Assembly: GCA_007571305.1 (NCBI GenBank)
Contig: RKRR01000138.1
Coordinates: forward strand, 27,331 to 91,330
Length of the DNA stretch: 64,000 bases
From: Candidatus Poribacteria bacterium
GTDB taxonomy: Bacteria > Poribacteria > WGA-4E > WGA-3G
Direction: 5' to 3'
Positions 38,260 through 43,769 of the stretch are shown here, one piece after another. Position 1 is the first letter of the stretch. Each line of letters begins with the position of its first letter. The position numbers were made by a program, and so were the translations under genes. The notes below the pieces were generated by a model. It had not been told where the DNA came from and did not search any database. It saw only the letters and a list, made by a program, of their open reading frames with translations.

Positions 38260-38463
38260 GGTTTTTTACCTCTTAGGTTGGGGTTGGTTTCAGTATATCA
38301 TATTGTTGTGTGTTCGTGAAATTCAATTGATGCCATAACTGAAGTGCTCAGTTCCCCTACGCTCACTGTCCCTATTGGCAAAGTTCCCTAATCTCGTCAA
38401 CCCACAATATCCAGTTCCTTCTCATATACACTATAGGCTGACCCGTTCATAGTTAGATTTTCC

Positions 38464-38503
38464 TTGACATCTGCTTCCCGTTATGATACGTTAAATTTAA
38501 CGT
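38464..38503 (+). promoter_or_regulatory. promoter-like hexamers (TTGACA-17 nt-TACGTT) overlapped by a perfect 16-bp palindrome ACGTTAAATTTAACGT
   Basis: The palindrome lies at 38488-38503. A half-site-like CGTTAAATTTAA recurs at about 38665-38679. Confidence 0.3.
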
Positions 38504-38757
38504 GAGTTTGATAAATATTCAGGGTAGACACATTTTCGCTTAAAGTCCCCTGATAAGGGGATTTCGGGGGTTTCTCCCTAAAAAACCGCCTCTTTTTGAG
38601 CAAATATATTGTTTTTTTGCTCAATTTGCGTCCGTTTTGGACCTCTAATATTTTTTTTAAACTGGCGTTAAATTTAATAAAGTGCCCTACTTTGTATGAA
38701 GTTAATTTATGATAGAAAATTACCAAGCGAAGTTTGGATACCCGTGTGTAGACCAAT

Positions 38758-38994
38758 TTGCAAGCATGGAAAGTTTATCTTGATACATGTTGCTTGAGTC
38801 GGCTTCTTGATCCACCAACACAAGTGCGACTTATTGAAGATGAAACCGTTGCTGAAGATGAGGCCGGTAAGTTGATGGAAGTCCCAACAGAGAAAATGCT
38901 TCATGATCGAATTCCGAGGTATCTTTGCAAAAATTGTCAGAGAATGCAGACAAACAAGGGTTTAAAACAATATCTATTACACCTAAACCAATGA
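38758..38994 (+). pseudogene. PIN-domain toxin relic
   Basis: WKVYLDTCCLSRLLDPPTQVRLIEDETVA resembles the KIYLDTCxLxRPxDxxxQxRI N-terminus of one PIN family as I recall it. The remaining ~50 codons lack PIN features. At 78 aa it is too short. Confidence 0.4.
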
Positions 38995-39185
38995 ACATAA
39001 AGGCAGCAATCCAATACTATGAAGGTCTAAATGATGTCGGAAAGGCAGGTTTCATTTTGACACTAAAAAGAGAAGACCAAAAACTCTTTTTAGATGCTTA
39101 TGAAGAGCACTACTACCGATACGATCCAGAAAACGCACCGAAAGTCAAGATATCTGCACACATCTTTGAAGATGAAAAATCCTAA
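38991..39185 (+). CDS. small hypothetical protein
   Basis: The ATG overlaps the previous stop (ATGA). 64 codons with no motif and no clear RBS. Confidence 0.3.
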   Translation: MNIKAAIQYYEGLNDVGKAGFILTLKREDQKLFLDAYEEHYYRYDPENAPKVKISAHIFEDEKS

Positions 39186-39306
39186 CCGATACACATGTAG
39201 CGGGTATGCTCATGACTTTGAAATCTTCTCTTAAGACTTTATTTTTCAAACTCACGTTAGTAGTACTGAAACTTTGCTAACTGATTCCAATTATACAGGA
39301 GATAGA

Positions 39307-39981
39307 ATGTCGAATTCTCGTTACTCGTTACACCAATATTCTGTTGATACATTGTTGAATTGGATTAAGACCGAGGATATAGTTATTCCGGAAATCCAGA
39401 GGCCTTTTGTTTGGACAGCACCCAAAGTGCGTGATTTTATTGATTCACTTTACCATGGCTATCCTGTTGGGTATCTCATTACTTGGCCGAAGTCGGATGT
39501 TTCCCTCCGGGGCGGCGAAGCATCAACCCGTGAAAGGATCCTGATTGATGGGCAGCAGCGCACAATGGCACTTCGAGCGGCATTGCTTGGAAAAAAGGTT
39601 TTGACCAAAAAGTATAAGGAACAGCAAATTCAGATAGCTTTTCATCCTGATAAGGAGAGTTTCGCAGTAGCGACTAAGGCTATCTGTAACGATCCAGAAT
39701 GGATTTCTGACATCTCCACTGTTTTCAACTCTAATTCTGGTCTGCTCCGATTGGTTGATGCGTACTGTGAGAGGAATGACGAGGTGGACAGGTATAAAAT
39801 GGGGGAACGTATAGGGAAACTTTATGAAATTCGGAATAATTCTCTGGGTGTTATTGATCTTACGGCAGACCTTGATATAGATACTATCATGGAAATTATC
39901 GGCCGTATGAATAAAACAAGTTTGCACTTGCCTACGGCGAATTTCATTAAGTCTAGGATGGCCGCTATAAATTCGCCATAG
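39307..39981 (+). CDS. stand-alone DUF262 (GmrS/ParB-like, DGQQR) domain protein
   Basis: IPEIQRPFVWTAPKVRDFIDSLYHGYPVGYLITW and LIDGQQRTMAL. ATG at 39307 follows AGGAG. There is no DUF1524/HNH part. Confidence 0.8.
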   Translation: MSNSRYSLHQYSVDTLLNWIKTEDIVIPEIQRPFVWTAPKVRDFIDSLYHGYPVGYLITWPKSDVSLRGGEASTRERILIDGQQRTMALRAALLGKKVLTKKYKEQQIQIAFHPDKESFAVATKAICNDPEWISDISTVFNSNSGLLRLVDAYCERNDEVDRYKMGERIGKLYEIRNNSLGVIDLTADLDIDTIMEIIGRMNKTSLHLPTANFIKSRMAAINSP

Positions 39982-40039
39982 GTCAAGTTGCCCTGATATA
40001 CTGGTTTTATCAGTATGAGGAAAGGTTATATCTCAATTC

Positions 40040-41353
40040 ATGTCACCGAATGAAATTCTGGAATGGTTTAATCAAGCATCTATTGACAAAGCGTGGTCGT
40101 TTGCTGGCTGCAAGCCATCAGACACAGGGAAATGGACGCATGGTTACCACCGTTATCCTGCCAAGTTTATTCCACAACTTGTTGAACGCTTGATGGATGA
40201 TTACATAACCAATGGGACTGCTAGTGTAAATGATCCATTTATGGGGTGCGGAACGACAGTTGTTAGTGCAATATCGCGCGGTTTTCGCGCGAGTGGAACG
40301 GACATTAATAAAGTTGCTCACTTGGTAACTAAAGCGAAGGCATCGCCTATTGCCCCTGACTACCTTGAAAAAAAGGTTAAACAATTTCTTTCGGGAATTT
40401 TGCCATCGGATGATGAACAGGATATTTTTGATAGAGTGTGGGTACAACCCCATATCCCAAAGAAACATTTAGAAAGAATTGATTATTGGTTTATGGAAGA
40501 GGTGCGGGACGAATTGGGAAGGATCCTGACTTTAATTTATGATGAAGATGATTCGGCTGTTCAATCCTTTTTGGTGGTGGCGTTTAGTCATGTGCTTAAA
40601 ACGTGTTCAATTTGGAGTCAAAGTAGCACTAAGCCGACGCGGGATTTGAAGAAACGACCTACACTACCCTACGATGCTATTAAAAGACACCTTTTTAAAA
40701 TGCTAAAGGGCAATGAACAGTTTTACGGTGTTGTTCCATCTTGCGTTAAAGATAAGCCCGACAGTTTTCTAAATATCCAAGTACGTTCTGCCGAAAGGCA
40801 GCCTGTCCCGGACGACAGCGTAGATTTAATTGTTAGTTCAAGTCCGTATGTAACCAGTTACGAGTATGCCGATCTACATCAACTCTCGACGCTTTGGCTT
40901 GATTTAGCAGATGACCTTAAAGAGTATAAGAAAAAGTTCATCGGGACCTCTTACAAGCAGTATGAAGACAAAACGCTATCAAGTCAAATTGCTTCTAATA
41001 TTGTTGCTGAGATGCTATCTAAAAATAAAAAAAAGGCAAAGGAAATAGAAGCTTTCTTTATTGATATGCAGGGTGTCTTTAAGGAAAGTTTTAGGATTCT
41101 GAAACCGGGTGGGCGATGTTGTTACGTCATTGGGAATACCAAGTTAAGGGGCGTTGATATACTTAACGCTGAAGCATTTGCTGAGTCCTTACAACACTCA
41201 GGTTTTAAGTTGGATCGGCTTATAAAGCGCGAAATTCCACTAAAGATCCTCCCTCAGAAAAGAGATGAAAAAACAGGAAGATTTGCCAGCAAGGATAAAG
41301 CTGACTCCGAAGCATATCCAACGGAGTATATCGTTATTGGGTTAAAGGAATAG
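40040..41353 (+). CDS. DNA amino-methyltransferase (N6-adenine or N4-cytosine class)
   Basis: YPAKFIPQLVERLM...NDPFMGCGTTVV (AdoMet motif I) comes first. DLIVSSSPYVTSYEY ((D/S)PPY-like motif IV) lies about 200 aa later. No C5-MTase PCQ/ENV motifs. Confidence 0.85.
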   Translation: MSPNEILEWFNQASIDKAWSFAGCKPSDTGKWTHGYHRYPAKFIPQLVERLMDDYITNGTASVNDPFMGCGTTVVSAISRGFRASGTDINKVAHLVTKAKASPIAPDYLEKKVKQFLSGILPSDDEQDIFDRVWVQPHIPKKHLERIDYWFMEEVRDELGRILTLIYDEDDSAVQSFLVVAFSHVLKTCSIWSQSSTKPTRDLKKRPTLPYDAIKRHLFKMLKGNEQFYGVVPSCVKDKPDSFLNIQVRSAERQPVPDDSVDLIVSSSPYVTSYEYADLHQLSTLWLDLADDLKEYKKKFIGTSYKQYEDKTLSSQIASNIVAEMLSKNKKKAKEIEAFFIDMQGVFKESFRILKPGGRCCYVIGNTKLRGVDILNAEAFAESLQHSGFKLDRLIKREIPLKILPQKRDEKTGRFASKDKADSEAYPTEYIVIGLKE

Positions 41354-41360
41354 GAGAGTT

Positions 41361-42038
41361 ATGAAATTTGAAGATTTGAAAGATATGTACAGCAAGACAC
41401 AATTAGTAGAGGGAGAGGAAGCTTACAAAACGGTTTCTCAAATTTTGCAGGACGCTAAAGAACTTCATAAGAAAGATTTTTTAAGGGACAAACCCAATGG
41501 GGACCATGAACAAAGTTGGCGGGCTTTCAAGGGAAAGAATTTTGAGAGATTAATCCAACACATTATCACGGAATCAATTGAAGCCCTTGGTATGAAAGTG
41601 ATTAATGGCAATAAGTTAGAACGGAGTAAGAATTTGCCGCTGGAACTGAGACGAGTTAAACGGAACTTAGCAATTGATTACAGAGAATTTGGGTTGCATT
41701 TACCTGATGTTGATATTGTAGTTTATAGTCCAGAAGATCAGGGTGTAATTGCTGTTATCTCGAGCAAAGTTACGTTGCGCGAGCGGATAGCTCAAACAGG
41801 ATATTGGAAACTTAAGTTGTTGGCAGATCAAACCACAGAACATATCAAAGTCTATTTTATTACGCCAGACGAAGACGGCACCTTGACAGACACATATCTT
41901 CCAAAGAAAGGAAGAGCCATTGTAGAAATTGACCTTGATGGTACCTACGTATTAACAGAGGCGGATCTTGATCAAAGTGGCAAGGTCAAACTTTTTGAAC
42001 ATTTTATTGAGGATTTCAAGCAGCTTATTAAAAAGTGA
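41361..42038 (+). CDS. PD-(D/E)xK restriction endonuclease-like protein, paralogue 1
   Basis: GKNFERLI (E), LPDVDIVVY (PD) and VISSKVTLRER (SxK followed by K-x3-R-E-R). Starts 7 nt after the MTase stop. Confidence 0.7.
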   Translation: MKFEDLKDMYSKTQLVEGEEAYKTVSQILQDAKELHKKDFLRDKPNGDHEQSWRAFKGKNFERLIQHIITESIEALGMKVINGNKLERSKNLPLELRRVKRNLAIDYREFGLHLPDVDIVVYSPEDQGVIAVISSKVTLRERIAQTGYWKLKLLADQTTEHIKVYFITPDEDGTLTDTYLPKKGRAIVEIDLDGTYVLTEADLDQSGKVKLFEHFIEDFKQLIKK

Positions 42039-42156
42039 TGGATGTCTTATCTATTTTGGATATAGAATTCTTTTGTGTAAGACATATTGGAGTCGTTTCA
42101 AAATCCGATGCAAAACAGATTTGTGCGCTATCTTGTTTCTGCTATGGAAATACAGC

Positions 42157-42190
42157 ACGGTAGTATATCTTTATTGGGTTAAAGGAATAG
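42157..42190 (+). other. fossil copy of the last 33 nt of the methyltransferase gene
   Basis: ACGGTAGTATATCTTTATTGGGTTAAAGGAATAG differs from 41321-41353 (ACGGAGTATATCGTTATTGGGTTAAAGGAATAG) by one indel and one mismatch. Confidence 0.7.
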
Positions 42191-42196
42191 GTAATT

Positions 42197-42871
42197 GTGA
42201 ACAGTTTTGAAGTTTTGAAAACTCTGTATGGCGAAATGCAAGAGGAACGAGGAGAAGAAGTTTACAAGTATGTTCTCGAACTCTTACAAGAAGTTCAAAG
42301 GGTACGGAACGTATCTGGTAAAGACAAAGGGCAAAGTTCGCGTTCTTCTAATGGACATAATTTTGAAAAATTGATTCAGCATATTATCACAGAACCACTT
42401 GGGGCACTAGGCCTAGAAGTTGTTAATGGTAATACGTTAGGACGGAAGGTTGATCGAAACCTGTCGGAAGCATTAAGACAGGTTAAGCAAAATTTGCTTA
42501 TTGACTATGACAAATTTGAACGCCTTCTGCCTGACGCTGATATTGTTATTTTTAATCCCGAAAATTCGGAAGTTATTGCTATTATTTCATGTAAAATCTC
42601 TTTGAGAGAACGAATTGCTCATACCGTATATTGGAAGTTCAAACTTCTTAAAAGTCAGAAGACAGAACACATCAAACTGTATCTAATTACACTTGATAAG
42701 GACAAACACTTGACAGAAAGGGAACATCCAAAAAGACAGCGAATCATTGTGGAAACGGAGCTTGATAGCACCTATGTACTAACAACAGAGAATCTTGAGG
42801 AAAGCGATAAGGTCAAACTGTTTGAACATTTCATTGAAGATTTTAAACAAGTCATAGAAGAAAGTAAATAA
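42197..42871 (+). CDS. PD-(D/E)xK restriction endonuclease-like protein, paralogue 2
   Basis: GTG start 6 nt after the fossil stop. GHNFEKLI, LPDADIVIF and IISCKISLRER. The C-terminus KVKLFEHFIEDFKQ is identical to paralogue 1. Confidence 0.7.
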   Translation: MNSFEVLKTLYGEMQEERGEEVYKYVLELLQEVQRVRNVSGKDKGQSSRSSNGHNFEKLIQHIITEPLGALGLEVVNGNTLGRKVDRNLSEALRQVKQNLLIDYDKFERLLPDADIVIFNPENSEVIAIISCKISLRERIAHTVYWKFKLLKSQKTEHIKLYLITLDKDKHLTEREHPKRQRIIVETELDSTYVLTTENLEESDKVKLFEHFIEDFKQVIEESK

Positions 42872-42875
42872 TATA

Positions 42876-43769
42876 ATGAAAATTGCAAATGCCCCGTGTT
42901 CCTGGGGCGTACTTGAGTTTGAGTTAGACGGTGAAGCACCCGGCTACGTACAAGTGTTAGACGAGATGCACACTCTCGGCTATCTCGGCACCGAATTGGG
43001 CGATTGGGGGTTTATGCCAACAGATGCGAAACGCCTCCGTGCCGAACTTAAGGAACGGGACTTAACGCTGTTAGGGGCATTCGTAGGTGTCGCACTGGCT
43101 GATAAAAAAACACATGCATCAGGTGAAGAAGTGGCACTACGGCATGCCCGTTTGTTAGCCGATGTCGGTGGACAAACACCTTTCATCGTGCTTTCGGATG
43201 ATAACGCTACCACAGAATTGCGTACCCGCTATGCCGGTCGCATCCGTCCTGAACATGGGTTGACACCAGCACAGTGGGATACGTTTATACAGGGCGCGCA
43301 CCGTATCGCCCGATCTGTGCGAGAAGAGACGGGACTTCGCACCGTCTTCCATCCACACTGTGCAGGATATGTAGAGGCCCCAGCAGAAGTGGACACATTG
43401 ATGGAACGCACCGATCCAAACCTCATCGGATTGTGTTTCGATACAGGACATTACCGATTCGGCGGCGGTGATCCGATTGAAGCGTATGCCTGCCACGCTG
43501 ACCGGGTCTGGCACGTTCATTTCAAGGATTGTCATCCCGATATCGCCGCCCGTTCTCGTAAGGAGGAGTGGGATTATTTCGAGGCTGTTGGGAATGGCGT
43601 TTTCTGCGAGTTAGGCAACGGGGACGTTGACTTCCCTGCGTTCCTTGAAGAATTACGAAAACGAGACTACGACGGCTGGATCGTTGCGGAGCAAGATGTC
43701 TTACCGGGGATGGGCAGTCCGTATGAGAGCGCGGAGCGAAATCTGCGGTATCTGAATTCAATTGTATAA
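42876..43769 (+). CDS. sugar phosphate isomerase/epimerase (xylose isomerase-like TIM barrel; inosose dehydratase-like)
   Basis: MKIANAPCSWGVLEF start, conserved His/Asp/Glu pattern (HPH, DTGH, EQD), and an adjacent inositol-dehydrogenase-like gene. Confidence 0.8.
   Translation: MKIANAPCSWGVLEFELDGEAPGYVQVLDEMHTLGYLGTELGDWGFMPTDAKRLRAELKERDLTLLGAFVGVALADKKTHASGEEVALRHARLLADVGGQTPFIVLSDDNATTELRTRYAGRIRPEHGLTPAQWDTFIQGAHRIARSVREETGLRTVFHPHCAGYVEAPAEVDTLMERTDPNLIGLCFDTGHYRFGGGDPIEAYACHADRVWHVHFKDCHPDIAARSRKEEWDYFEAVGNGVFCELGNGDVDFPAFLEELRKRDYDGWIVAEQDVLPGMGSPYESAERNLRYLNSIV

What the first reader, a model, noticed from the sequence alone, without database searches (positions are those of the whole stretch)
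41321..42871. Tandem nuclease paralogues created by a duplication that also copied the last 33 nt of the methyltransferase gene
The two nucleases (225 and 224 aa) are identical at roughly half of their residues by eye. Both keep every putative catalytic position (E in GxNFExLI, PD, SxK), the K-x3-R-E-R segment and an identical KVKLFEHFIEDFKQ tail.

Many synonymous differences indicate an old duplication under purifying selection rather than a decaying copy.

Upstream of copy 2, 42157-42190 repeats the MTase 3' end, stop and RBS region of 41321-41353 with one indel and one mismatch. It reproduces the same stop-to-start spacing (7 versus 6 nt).

Retention of both copies suggests a heterodimeric enzyme cutting an asymmetric site, as in Bpu10I/BbvCI-type systems. 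Those systems normally need two methylases, and only one is present here. From memory, the R-E-R after the SxK lysine resembles the CC/GG-recognition motif of the Ecl18kI/PspGI/EcoRII group.
Basis: partly seen in the sequence, partly recalled or inferred. Interest (0 to 1): 0.65.

Follow-up and report, generated by a model that had tools for sequence, protein, structure and literature searches.

The report
Duplicated nuclease in CCGG-type restriction system
A restriction-modification gene cluster of a sponge symbiont (Poribacteria) carries two diverged copies of its DNA-cutting enzyme, made by an old tandem duplication: the first copy is the standard self-sufficient enzyme, and the second is a faster-evolving extra that is swapped between lineages and whose exact role is still open.

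Summary
R1 (41361-42038) and R2 (42197-42871) are 54% identical BsaWI-family (CCGG-family PD-(D/E)XK) nucleases downstream of one methyltransferase. Both keep the E/D/K catalytic residues and the R-E-R motif. dN/dS between them is 0.14, with synonymous sites near saturation. A 34-nt copy of the methylase 3' end, stop and RBS lies upstream of R2.

Comparison with 80 related loci confirms and extends the duplication. The R1-R2 spacer is a chimera of an internal fragment of the downstream xylose-isomerase-like gene (XI) and the methylase 3' relic. This marks an in-situ tandem duplication that predates the divergence of the sampled Poribacteria that carry the pair.

The BbvCI/Bpu10I-type obligate heterodimer is not supported:
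- M plus a single R1-type nuclease is the normal form in more than 25 genomes of other bacterial and archaeal groups, and in at least three Poribacteria.
- R1 is equally conserved with or without R2.
- Only one methylase is present.

R2 evolves 3-5 times less constrained than R1 and is exchanged between lineages independently of its flanks. Some alleles have lost E62 or R140. Where M-R1 is absent, R2 survives only as a catalytically dead but selected "orphan".

Most likely R2 is an accessory, methylase-dependent second nuclease. Hetero-oligomerisation with R1 remains possible.

The parts
38260..42875 (.). Low-GC defence islet (37-44% GC; flanks about 50%) lying between a glycoside-hydrolase-like gene and the XI gene.
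   Evidence: Composition profile. Related Poribacteria carry varied defence genes at the same chromosomal slot.
39274..39981 (+). Truncated GmrSD gene: only the N-terminal DUF262 domain, 235 aa.
   Evidence: Pfam PF03235, E 6e-26. The orthologue is full length (584-597 aa) in L064 and L067.
39973..40002 (+). Promoter-like site (TCGCCA, 18-nt spacer, TG-TATACT) upstream of M. It is a candidate operon promoter.
   Evidence: Consensus scan only; the count of sites is not above the shuffle expectation. No terminator-like site lies between M, R1 and R2.
40040..41353 (+). The single DNA methyltransferase M (437 aa). Motif I (DPFMGCGTT) is N-terminal. Motif IV reads SSPY, so it is probably an N4-cytosine enzyme.
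   Evidence: Pfam PF01555. PADLOC MTase_II, E 2e-54. Motif IV aligns with SPPY of 2ZIE. dN/dS is about 0.10 between species.
41321..41354 (+). Original copy of the junction: the last 30 nt of M, its stop codon and the Shine-Dalgarno region of R1.
41361..42038 (+). R1, the conserved and autonomous BsaWI-family nuclease (E62, D116, D118, K136, R140-E141-R142).
   Evidence: Pfam. PDB profile hit to BsaWI 4ZSF, E 1.3e-7. AF2 model pLDDT 92.9. Foldseek hits PfoI, AgeI, Kpn2I and SgrAI. 82-88% identical across Poribacteria with dN/dS 0.04-0.08.
42044..42138 (+). Spacer segment conserved among species. Positions from about 42062 to 42138 are a decayed copy of an internal piece of the XI gene (XI nt about 399-478).
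   Evidence: A profile of the spacers hits XI at the same offset in 25 loci, including loci that have no spacer, with E 1e-9 to 8e-3. In the window the hit is at 43274-43350, E 1.5e-5. In L005 the pairwise match is 54/80 identical, score 53 against a shuffle maximum of 29. In the window alone the pairwise similarity is not significant.
42157..42191 (+). Relic of the M 3' end, with stop codon and Shine-Dalgarno (AAAGGAA), serving as the translation-initiation region of R2.
   Evidence: The spacer profile matches the last 50-58 nt of M in 13 species, E 1e-10 to 7e-6. The TTAAAGGAAT core is the best-kept part of the relics (10 of 12 species).
42197..42871 (+). R2, the accessory paralogue. Its catalytic and R-E-R residues are intact. 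It is changed at the invariant QSWRAFKGKN DNA-contact segment (QSSRSSNGHN) and has a 6-aa deletion after helix 1.
   Evidence: dN/dS is 0.13-0.35 between orthologues. dS against L077 is 0.21, versus 1.3 for R1 and 1.2 for XI.
42876..43769 (+). XI, the xylose-isomerase-like TIM-barrel gene that marks the right border. Segment 43274-43350 is the source of the spacer fragment.
   Evidence: Pfam PF01261. Synteny..

Best explanation
The locus is a Type IIP, CCGG-family (BsaWI-like) restriction-modification operon in a Poribacteria genome, and its nuclease gene was duplicated in place.

How the duplication arose:
- A single tandem duplication of about 1.2 kb ran from about 55 nt before the end of M, through R, to about nt 478 of the downstream XI gene. 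It produced M-R1-XI'-M'-R2-XI.
- Most of XI' was later deleted. The present 158-nt spacer is what remains: an XI fragment followed by the M 3' relic that carries the RBS of R2.

The two copies:
- R1 stayed the canonical, self-sufficient enzyme. By analogy with BsaWI it would be a homodimer or tetramer that reads CCGG through R-E-R.
- R2 is an accessory second nuclease that depends on the same methylase. In this window it keeps all catalytic and CCGG-reading residues.
- R2 has diverged most in the N-terminal dimerisation helix and in the segment that corresponds to the minor-groove and outer-base-pair contacts of BsaWI.
- I therefore infer that R2 works mainly as its own homodimer on CCGG-containing sites covered by M. 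This predicts that M methylates the CCGG core more broadly than R1 cuts.

Evolution of the R2 slot: it is less constrained than R1 and is exchanged between lineages by recombination. It drifts towards non-catalytic forms in some alleles. It becomes a dead but retained orphan when M-R1 is lost.

Shown: the anatomy, the duplication, family membership, the selection regimes, the autonomy of R1, and the link between M and an intact R2 active site.
Inferred: R2 activity, its oligomeric state, its site preference, and the specificity of M.

The confidence of 0.5 applies to the mechanistic part (R2 as an independently acting, M-dependent second nuclease). I would put the evolutionary and anatomical part at about 0.9.
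For: Family membership: Pfam; BsaWI profile alignment of E62/D116/K136/RER to E92/D145/K165/R169-D170-R171 (PMC4652773); fold matches to PfoI, AgeI, Kpn2I and SgrAI.

Duplication:
- Junction repeat.
- M relic in 13 species.
- XI fragment in the spacer.
- R2 plus orphans form one clade (95/100 bootstraps), drawn beside the Poribacteria R1 clade in the NJ tree and nested among single-R systems; only the R2-plus-orphan grouping was bootstrapped.

R1 autonomy: single-R loci in more than 25 genomes, plus L018, L026 and L047; invariant motifs.

R2 is functional but accessory:
- dN/dS is 0.13-0.35, against 0.04-0.08 for R1.
- D116, D118 and K136 are kept in 20/20 R2 genes that sit with M. They are kept together in only 1/15 orphan genes without M.
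- The N-helix is 38% identical between R1 and R2, and the QSWRAFKGKN segment, invariant in R1, varies in R2.

Exchange: R2 dS is 0.21 between the window and L077, while R1 and XI have dS 1.2-1.3.
Against: - No biochemical or expression data exist, and no RNA runs were found.
- Six of 20 R2 alleles have lost E62 and/or R140. The E62Q+R140A allele group remains under purifying selection (dN/dS 0.12-0.15 at dS about 1). Cleavage therefore cannot be the only selected function of the R2 lineage.
- The orphans are also under selection (dN/dS 0.14-0.33).
- The C-terminal helix is equally conserved in R1, R2 and the orphans (73-80%). In BsaWI the C-terminal helix H9 forms part of the tetramer interface (PMC4652773), which would fit mixed R1/R2 assemblies.
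- If M has the same 6-bp specificity as R1, a second homodimeric nuclease would add no new targets.
- The M-versus-orphan contrast rests on one clade of orphans, so it is phylogenetically close to a single event.
Confidence: 0.5

Rival explanations
1. R2 is a partner of R1 rather than a separate enzyme. R1 and R2 would form mixed dimers or R1(2)R2(2) tetramers through the conserved C-terminal helix, with R2 acting as a second-site-binding, modulating or strand-specific subunit. In some alleles R2 would be non-catalytic.
For: - The C-terminal helix is identical or nearly so in R1 and R2.
- BsaWI is optimally active as a tetramer on two sites, with C-domain helices at the interface (PMC4652773).
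- E62Q/R140A alleles are kept under purifying selection.
- The genes share an operon with the same RBS context.
- One-M/two-paralogue layouts also occur in Latescibacterota (R'-M-R1) and in L043 (M-R-R).
Against: - R1 is unchanged in genomes lacking R2.
- R2 alleles move independently of R1.
- The N-terminal dimerisation helix is the most diverged part.
- Orphans keep the same tail in complete genomes where the scan found no R1.
- The fused R1-linker-R2 model could not be run.
Confidence: 0.27
2. One reading: an obligate BbvCI/Bpu10I-type heterodimer in which each paralogue cuts one strand of an asymmetric site.
For: There are two paralogous subunits, both with intact active sites, in one operon. 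BbvCI is an example of such an enzyme (PMC6326814).
Against: - Single-gene homologues are the rule.
- M-R1 exists without R2 in Poribacteria.
- There is only one methylase.
- Both subunits keep the same R-E-R reader, so the core remains the palindrome CCGG.
- R2 alleles with E62Q or R140A persist.
Confidence: 0.08
3. R2 is a functionless duplicate on its way to decay and has been retained only by chance.
For: R2 has a higher dN/dS than R1. Some alleles have lost key residues. R2 is absent from some species.
Against: - ORFs are intact in about 20 species despite saturated synonymous divergence.
- dN/dS is 0.12-0.35, not 1.
- The D116/D118/K136 triad is kept in all 20.
Confidence: 0.07
4. R2 is not a local duplicate. 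It would be the remnant of a second, independently acquired M2-R2 system whose methylase was deleted except for its last about 55 nt.
For: R2 is less similar to R1 (54%) than R1 is to archaeal single-R enzymes (62-69%). A methylase 3' relic precedes it.
Against: - The spacer joins an XI fragment directly to the M relic, as expected for a tandem duplication at this site.
- The R2 clade is drawn next to the Poribacteria R1 clade in the NJ tree (this sister position was not itself bootstrapped).
- R2 shares Poribacteria-specific residues with R1 (NFE and FIEDF, against NLE and FIDDL elsewhere).
Confidence: 0.03

Closest known systems
BsaWI (W/CCGGW), Pfam PF18643, PDB 4ZSF
   Same: Same Pfam family. 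The catalytic E/D/K residues and the contiguous R-(D/E)-R CCGG reader are alignable. Both have an N-terminal helical domain followed by a PD-(D/E)XK core (PMC4652773).
   Different: - Similarity is distant: single-sequence E 0.002, profile E 1.3e-7.
- R1 and R2 are 225 and 224 aa, against 272 aa for BsaWI.
- The BsaWI second acidic residue D175 corresponds to T146 here; D118 is the likely substitute.
- The BsaWI outer-base reader K85 corresponds to A (R1) or S (R2), so outer specificity cannot be transferred.
- BsaWI is a single-gene enzyme.
PfoI, AgeI, Kpn2I and SgrAI (other CCGG-family Type IIP/IIF enzymes)
   Same: These are the best fold matches of the R1 model: 6eko TM 0.69 (E 2e-6), 5dwc, 6ekr and SgrAI entries.
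   Different: Sequence identity is 10-19%. All are encoded by one nuclease gene. Their oligomeric behaviour differs: AgeI is a monomer that dimerises on DNA (PMC5389614), and SgrAI forms filaments (from memory).
BbvCI / Bpu10I (Type IIT heterodimers of paralogous subunits)
   Same: Two paralogous PD-(D/E)XK subunits are encoded side by side (PMC6326814).
   Different: Those enzymes need both subunits and cut asymmetric sites. From memory, they are accompanied by two methyltransferases. Here R1-type enzymes occur alone in most genomes, there is one methyltransferase, and both copies keep the same palindrome-reading motif.
Duplicated nuclease modules in which one copy becomes a non-catalytic DNA-binding or effector module (for example the two domains of Sau3AI; from memory)
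   Same: A duplicated restriction-nuclease fold in which one copy loses catalytic residues but is kept. This is seen here in the E62Q/R140A alleles and in the orphans.
   Different: Here the copies are separate genes, not domains of one chain. The copy in this window still has an intact active site.

Membership tests
BsaWI family / CCGG-family PD-(D/E)XK Type II restriction endonucleases | Significant match to the family profile (Pfam PF18643 above the gathering score). | tested here: met
   R1 scores 115.1 bits and R2 99.2 bits, against a cut-off of 26.2. The profile of the family hits BsaWI 4ZSF at E 1.3e-7.
BsaWI family / CCGG-family PD-(D/E)XK Type II restriction endonucleases | Fold of the CCGG-family enzymes. 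| tested here: met
   The R1 AF2 model has pLDDT 92.9. Top PDB matches are PfoI, AgeI, Kpn2I and SgrAI. R2 was not modelled separately; it is 54% identical to R1.
BsaWI family / CCGG-family PD-(D/E)XK Type II restriction endonucleases | Catalytic E...PD...(S/T)xK residues and an R-(D/E)-R recognition motif four residues after the lysine. | tested here: met
   R1 has E62, D116, K136 and R140-E141-R142. R2 has the equivalent residues. They align to BsaWI E92, D145, K165 and R169-D170-R171 (PMC4652773). The BsaWI D175 equivalent is absent (T146).
BsaWI family / CCGG-family PD-(D/E)XK Type II restriction endonucleases | Cleavage at a CCGG-containing site that is blocked by the cognate methylation. 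| not testable with these tools
   CCGG O/E is 0.55-0.68 in Poribacteria loci with and without the system, which is not discriminating.
Type II R-M operon | An adjacent cognate DNA methyltransferase. | tested here: met
   M at 40040-41353 ends 7 nt before R1. The M-R arrangement is conserved in about 60 loci.
Type IIT heterodimeric endonucleases (BbvCI/Bpu10I type) | Two different subunits, both required. | tested here: not met
   Tested by comparative genomics only. R1-type nuclease with M and no second copy occurs in more than 25 genomes and in Poribacteria L018, L026 and L047.
Type IIT heterodimeric endonucleases (BbvCI/Bpu10I type) | Two methyltransferases (or one bifunctional enzyme) to protect the two different strands of an asymmetric site. 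| tested here: not met
   There is only one methyltransferase in the islet and in the 64-kb window.
Type IIT heterodimeric endonucleases (BbvCI/Bpu10I type) | An asymmetric recognition sequence. | not testable with these tools
   Both copies keep the same R-E-R half-site reader. Asymmetry would only be possible at flanking positions.
Tandem gene duplication | Head-to-tail copies with a novel junction that joins the downstream end of the unit to its upstream end. | tested here: met
   The spacer consists of an XI internal fragment (XI nt about 399-478) followed by the last about 55 nt of M. Direct repeats lie 837 nt apart.
Tandem gene duplication | The paralogues are each other's closest relatives relative to outgroups. 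| tested here: met
   NJ tree: R2 plus orphans form one clade (95/100 bootstraps). That clade is drawn next to the Poribacteria R1 clade and inside the single-R systems, but this sister position was not itself bootstrapped. No ML tree was made.

The most novel reading that the evidence does not exclude
One broad-specificity (CCGG-core, probably m4C) methyltransferase licenses two nucleases. One is a frozen "housekeeping" enzyme (R1). The other sits in a hypervariable slot (R2) whose alleles differ in DNA-contact residues, are traded between Poribacteria lineages by recombination at conserved flanks, and can turn into non-catalytic proteins that are kept for another job (the orphans). This would be a modular, diversifying Type II restriction system, functionally similar to the variable specificity subunits of Type I systems. 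Alternatively, R1/R2 could be a natural mixed oligomer within the CCGG family.
Probability: 0.25. Interest if true: 0.7.

Novelty: new variant of a known kind. Interest (0 to 1): 0.5.

Why it matters
Type II nucleases of the CCGG family are textbook single-gene enzymes. A one-methylase, two-paralogue arrangement conserved across much of a phylum is a natural experiment on what happens to a duplicated toxic gene.
- One copy is frozen.
- The other diversifies, recombines, loses catalysis in some lineages, and is domesticated once the protecting methylase is gone.

If R2 alleles have distinct flank specificities or form mixed oligomers with R1, they would be a source of new CCGG-family specificities or nicking enzymes. 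They would also show how restriction systems broaden their range without new methylases.

The finding also documents a recombination-prone defence islet at a fixed chromosomal slot in sponge symbionts. These communities are known to be rich in defence genes (PMC5649159, PMC5099237).

Tried and rejected
1. Small ORF in the spacer (41 aa here, 50 aa in L077 and L080). It is not conserved across species: frames are broken and starts are missing. It was rejected as a gene and is the decayed XI/M relic.
2. Further methylase-derived sequence in the spacer. Nothing is detectable beyond the last 50-58 nt.
3. Concerted evolution of the relic with its own M end. Across 12 species the relic matches its own M end no better than foreign ones (mean 0.69 versus 0.68). 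In the window, L008, L011 and L014 the own M end is the best match. The window's 33/34 is the upper extreme, and the most conserved part is the Shine-Dalgarno core.
4. CCGG and NCCGGN under-representation as a clue to specificity. Depletion is the same with and without the system, so this was uninformative.
5. Promoter or terminator in the spacer. None was found above chance.
6. RNA evidence. No runs were found. DNA runs are sponge metagenomes kept as contigs only, and show no structural variants.
7. AF2 of a fused R1-linker-R2 with paired alignment.
8. Pairwise spacer-versus-XI similarity within the window alone is not significant (42/77 against a null of 38.8±2.8). The link rests on the multi-species profile and on L005.
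9. NCBIfam gave no informative hit. PADLOC recognises only M, and R1 weakly.
Full report
**Observation**

The region holds three co-oriented genes:
- M, 40040-41353, 437 aa
- R1, 41361-42038, 225 aa
- R2, 42197-42871, 224 aa, GTG start

R1 and R2 are 54% identical (122/225, E 8e-81). Both match Pfam RE_BsaWI (PF18643) at E 1.9e-33 and 1.6e-28.

A codon alignment of 219 codons gives the following:
- Nucleotide identity is 65%, and third-position identity is 51%.
- 59 of the 122 conserved residues use different codons.
- NG86 dN is 0.31 and dS about 2.2 (pS 0.71, near saturation), so dN/dS is 0.14.

The junction repeat is real. Positions 41321-41354 and 42157-42191 share 33 identities, with one mismatch and one 1-nt indel. 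The local score is 58 against a shuffle maximum of 30. The repeat finder found it independently at 97% over 30 nt with 837-nt spacing. Stop-to-start distances are 7 and 6 nt.

**What the proteins are**

A profile of the R1/R2 family hits BsaWI (PDB 4ZSF) at E 1.3e-7. It aligns R1 residues to the experimentally defined BsaWI residues as follows (PMC4652773):
- R1 E62, D116 and K136 align to BsaWI active-site residues E92, D145 and K165.
- R1 R140-E141-R142 aligns to the CCGG-reading R169-D170-R171.

The AF2 model of R1 is confident (pLDDT 92.9, pTM 0.89). Its best PDB neighbours are PfoI (TM 0.69), AgeI, Kpn2I and SgrAI, all CCGG-family enzymes.

The residue equivalent to the BsaWI second acidic residue D175 is T146. 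The invariant D118 (PDxD) is a plausible substitute; this is an inference.

M is a Type II amino-methyltransferase (PF01555; PADLOC MTase_II, E 2e-54). Motif I lies at the N-terminus. Motif IV reads SSPY and aligns with SPPY of 2ZIE, which suggests N4-cytosine methylation; this too is an inference. No other methyltransferase is present in the 64 kb.

**Context**

The genes lie in a low-GC islet (about 38260-42875; 37-44% GC against about 50% in the flanks). The islet sits between a glycoside-hydrolase-like gene and a xylose-isomerase-like TIM-barrel gene, called XI here. The source is a sponge metagenome.

A scan of one genome per species returned 76 loci, and four more came from exact-protein look-ups. 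The architectures were as follows:
- About 19 Poribacteria species share GH-(GmrSD_N)-M-R1-R2-XI-GFO.
- Poribacteria L018, L026 and L047 have M-R1 without R2. In L047, R1 abuts XI.
- More than 25 genomes of other bacterial and archaeal groups (Omnitrophica, Atribacteria, Cloacimonadia, WOR-3, Methanoperedenaceae, Woesearchaeota and others) have M plus a single R1-type nuclease, 62-69% identical to R1.
- Four Latescibacterota have R'-M-R1, and L043 has M-R-R.
- About 16 Poribacteria have no M or R1. They carry a 271-302-aa BsaWI-like "orphan" gene directly upstream of XI.

**The duplication**

A profile of the R1-R2 spacers of 14 loci matches the last 50-58 nt of M in 13 species (E 1e-10 to 7e-6). 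The relic is therefore ancestral, not a peculiarity of this window.

The first about 100 nt of the spacer are conserved among species. A profile of them hits an internal segment of XI (nt about 399-478) at the same offset in 25 loci. These include orphan loci that have no spacer (E 1e-9 to 8e-3).

In the window the hit lies at 43274-43350 (E 1.5e-5). In L005 the pairwise match is 54/80 identical, with a score of 53 against a shuffle maximum of 29. Within the window alone the pairwise similarity is not significant.

The spacer is thus a chimera of an XI fragment followed by the M 3' end. That is the novel junction expected from one tandem duplication of [M-55 ... R ... XI+478], followed by loss of most of the partial XI copy.

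An NJ tree groups R2 and the orphans in one clade (95/100 bootstraps). It draws that clade next to the Poribacteria R1 clade, inside the single-R systems, and places the orphans inside the R2 diversity. Only the R2-plus-orphan grouping was bootstrapped. Poribacteria-specific residues shared by R1 and R2 agree with this (NFE and FIEDF, against NLE and FIDDL elsewhere). An origin from a separately acquired M2-R2 system is therefore unlikely.

The window's 33/34 relic is the best-preserved example. Across species the relics are 56-87% identical to M ends and are no closer to their own M than to foreign ones. The best-kept part is the Shine-Dalgarno core TTAAAGGAAT, intact in the relics of 10 of 12 species. 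Functional constraint on the translation start of R2 probably accounts for most of the excess similarity.

**How the two copies evolve**

R1 and all single-R enzymes have invariant GKN[FL]EKL, LPDVDI and SSKVTLRERIAQ motifs, and the segment EQSWRAFKGKN. That segment aligns with BsaWI N81/K84/K85, which make the minor-groove and outer-base-pair contacts (PMC4652773).

dN/dS between species:

| Gene | dN/dS |
|---|---|
| R1 | 0.04-0.08 |
| M | about 0.10 |
| XI | mostly about 0.1 |
| R2 | 0.13-0.35 |

Key residues in the 20 R2-slot genes:
- All 20 keep D116, D118 and K136.
- Four have E62Q (L005, L007, L012, L053).
- Five have R140A (L005, L007, L009, L016, L053).

The double-mutant alleles are still under purifying selection (dN/dS 0.12-0.15 at dS about 1).

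R2 is most diverged from R1 in the N-terminal helix (38% identity) and varies in the QSWRAFKGKN segment (QSSRSSNGHN in the window). The C-terminal helix is equally conserved in R1, R2 and the orphans (73-80%). That conservation is at the protein level, because the R1 and R2 tails differ at 6 of 14 codons.

Synonymous distances are discordant along the locus:
- Between the window and L077, R2 has dS 0.21 while R1 has 1.3 and XI 1.2.
- Nucleotide identity rises from about 0.80 to about 0.91 between roughly 42100 and 42850.
- Other species pairs show different mosaics.
- The R2-slot gene of L003 has an R1-like core between an R2-like N-terminus and tail.

The slot is therefore exchanged by recombination and occasionally converted by its paralogue.

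**The orphans**

Where M-R1 is absent, the gene upstream of XI has changed as follows:
- E62 is lost in all of them.
- D116 is mostly Y, F or H, and K136 and R-E-R are mostly lost.
- D116, D118 and K136 survive together in only 1 of 15.

The orphans nevertheless keep intact ORFs, the conserved tail and dN/dS of 0.14-0.33. They carry an N-terminal extension and insertions, and they sit next to other defence genes (GmrSD, Mrr_N/HSDR_N, an SPPY methylase plus HNH).

The contrast of 20/20 against 1/15 indicates that R2 catalysis is maintained only under the protection of M. The caveat is that the orphans form one clade, so this is close to a single evolutionary event.

**Interpretation**

R1 is autonomous. 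It is the sole nuclease in most systems, its sequence does not depend on R2, and M-R1 occurs without R2 in other contexts. So do the single methylase and the shared palindrome-reading motif. A BbvCI/Bpu10I-type enzyme (PMC6326814) is therefore unlikely (about 0.08).

In this window R2 has every catalytic and CCGG-reading residue and is under purifying selection. I rate an accessory, M-dependent second nuclease that works mainly on its own as most likely (about 0.5). This predicts that M methylates the CCGG core more broadly than R1 cuts.

A mixed R1/R2 oligomer through the conserved C-terminal helix is the main rival (about 0.27). It would better explain the non-catalytic alleles. BsaWI uses C-domain helices for tetramerisation and needs two sites (PMC4652773).

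Simple decay (about 0.07) and separate acquisition (about 0.03) are poorly supported.

**Limits**

- The genomes are MAGs, and some frameshifts (L021, L023, L053, L056) may be assembly errors.
- dN/dS values are NG86 pairwise estimates, several near saturation.
- The tree is NJ, not ML.
- There are no expression or methylome data.
- REBASE was not available.

**Novelty**

To my knowledge, a one-methylase, two-paralogue CCGG-family system has not been described. This is from memory only: my literature searches did not target this arrangement, and REBASE was not available. The enzymes themselves are ordinary members of a known family, which NCBI already names "BsaWI family type II restriction enzyme". 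I classify the finding as a new variant of a known kind, of moderate interest.

Noticed in passing
window 38491-38677 (arms 38491-38518 and 38650-38677); extra arm copy at 39240-39259: A MITE-like element with 28-nt imperfect terminal inverted repeats. Its word depth in the two sponge-metagenome runs is 10-20 times that of the flanks, with many different loose ends, so it is multi-copy. A 95% complementary copy of one arm lies just upstream of the truncated GmrSD gene. Together the two arm copies bracket about 720 nt containing small ORFs.
   Followed up: partly
window 39274-39981: The GmrSD gene is reduced to its DUF262 N-terminal domain (235 aa). The same truncation accompanies M-R1-R2 in L005, L007, L010, L013 and L053. 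L064 and L067 have the full 584-597-aa gene directly followed by the orphan nuclease-like gene.
   Followed up: partly
L058-L074 (for example L064:5725-6543 and L058:5722-6552): A 271-302-aa BsaWI-like "orphan" gene lies directly upstream of XI in about 16 Poribacteria species that lack M and R1. The catalytic and R-E-R residues are lost. The ORF, the N-terminal extension and the ESDKVKLFEHFIEDFK tail are conserved, with dN/dS 0.14-0.33. It appears to be a domesticated dead nuclease of unknown function, often preceded by an Mrr_N/HSDR_N gene.
   Followed up: partly
L019, L020, L022, L052 (Latescibacterota); L043 (Poribacteria): Other one-methylase/two-paralogue layouts exist: R'-M-R1, where R' is 220-231 aa, 41-45% identical to R1, has intact motifs and dN/dS 0.16-0.31; and M-R-R. 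In L019 and L052 the R1 copy is truncated or interrupted while R' is intact.
   Followed up: partly
window 42038-42163; L077:825-977; L080:6842-6994: A small ORF starts at the R1 stop (ATGA overlap). In L077 and L080 it reads through into the methylase C-terminal relic (...YIFIGLKE*), giving 50 aa. In the window a 1-nt insertion truncates it to 41 aa. It is not conserved in other species.
   Followed up: yes
whole window and Poribacteria loci: CTAG (O/E 0.11 in the window) and GGCC (0.32) are far more depleted than CCGG (0.68). This hints at other restriction pressures or repair biases in these genomes.
   Followed up: no
L003:6829-7518: The R2-slot gene is a mosaic. Its N-terminus and tail are R2-like, but its core (aa about 90-200) is 73-83% identical to R1, including R1-type motifs. 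This suggests gene conversion between the paralogues.
   Followed up: partly
window 38925-39185: An 86-aa ORF of unknown function with no Pfam or PADLOC hit. It is 91% conserved in the same position in L010 and L013.
   Followed up: no
L010 versus L013; L005 versus L007: Synonymous divergence is mosaic across the locus. For L010/L013: M 0.13, R1 0.58, R2 0.14, XI 0.59. The whole islet therefore recombines between Poribacteria lineages, not only the R2 slot.
   Followed up: partly
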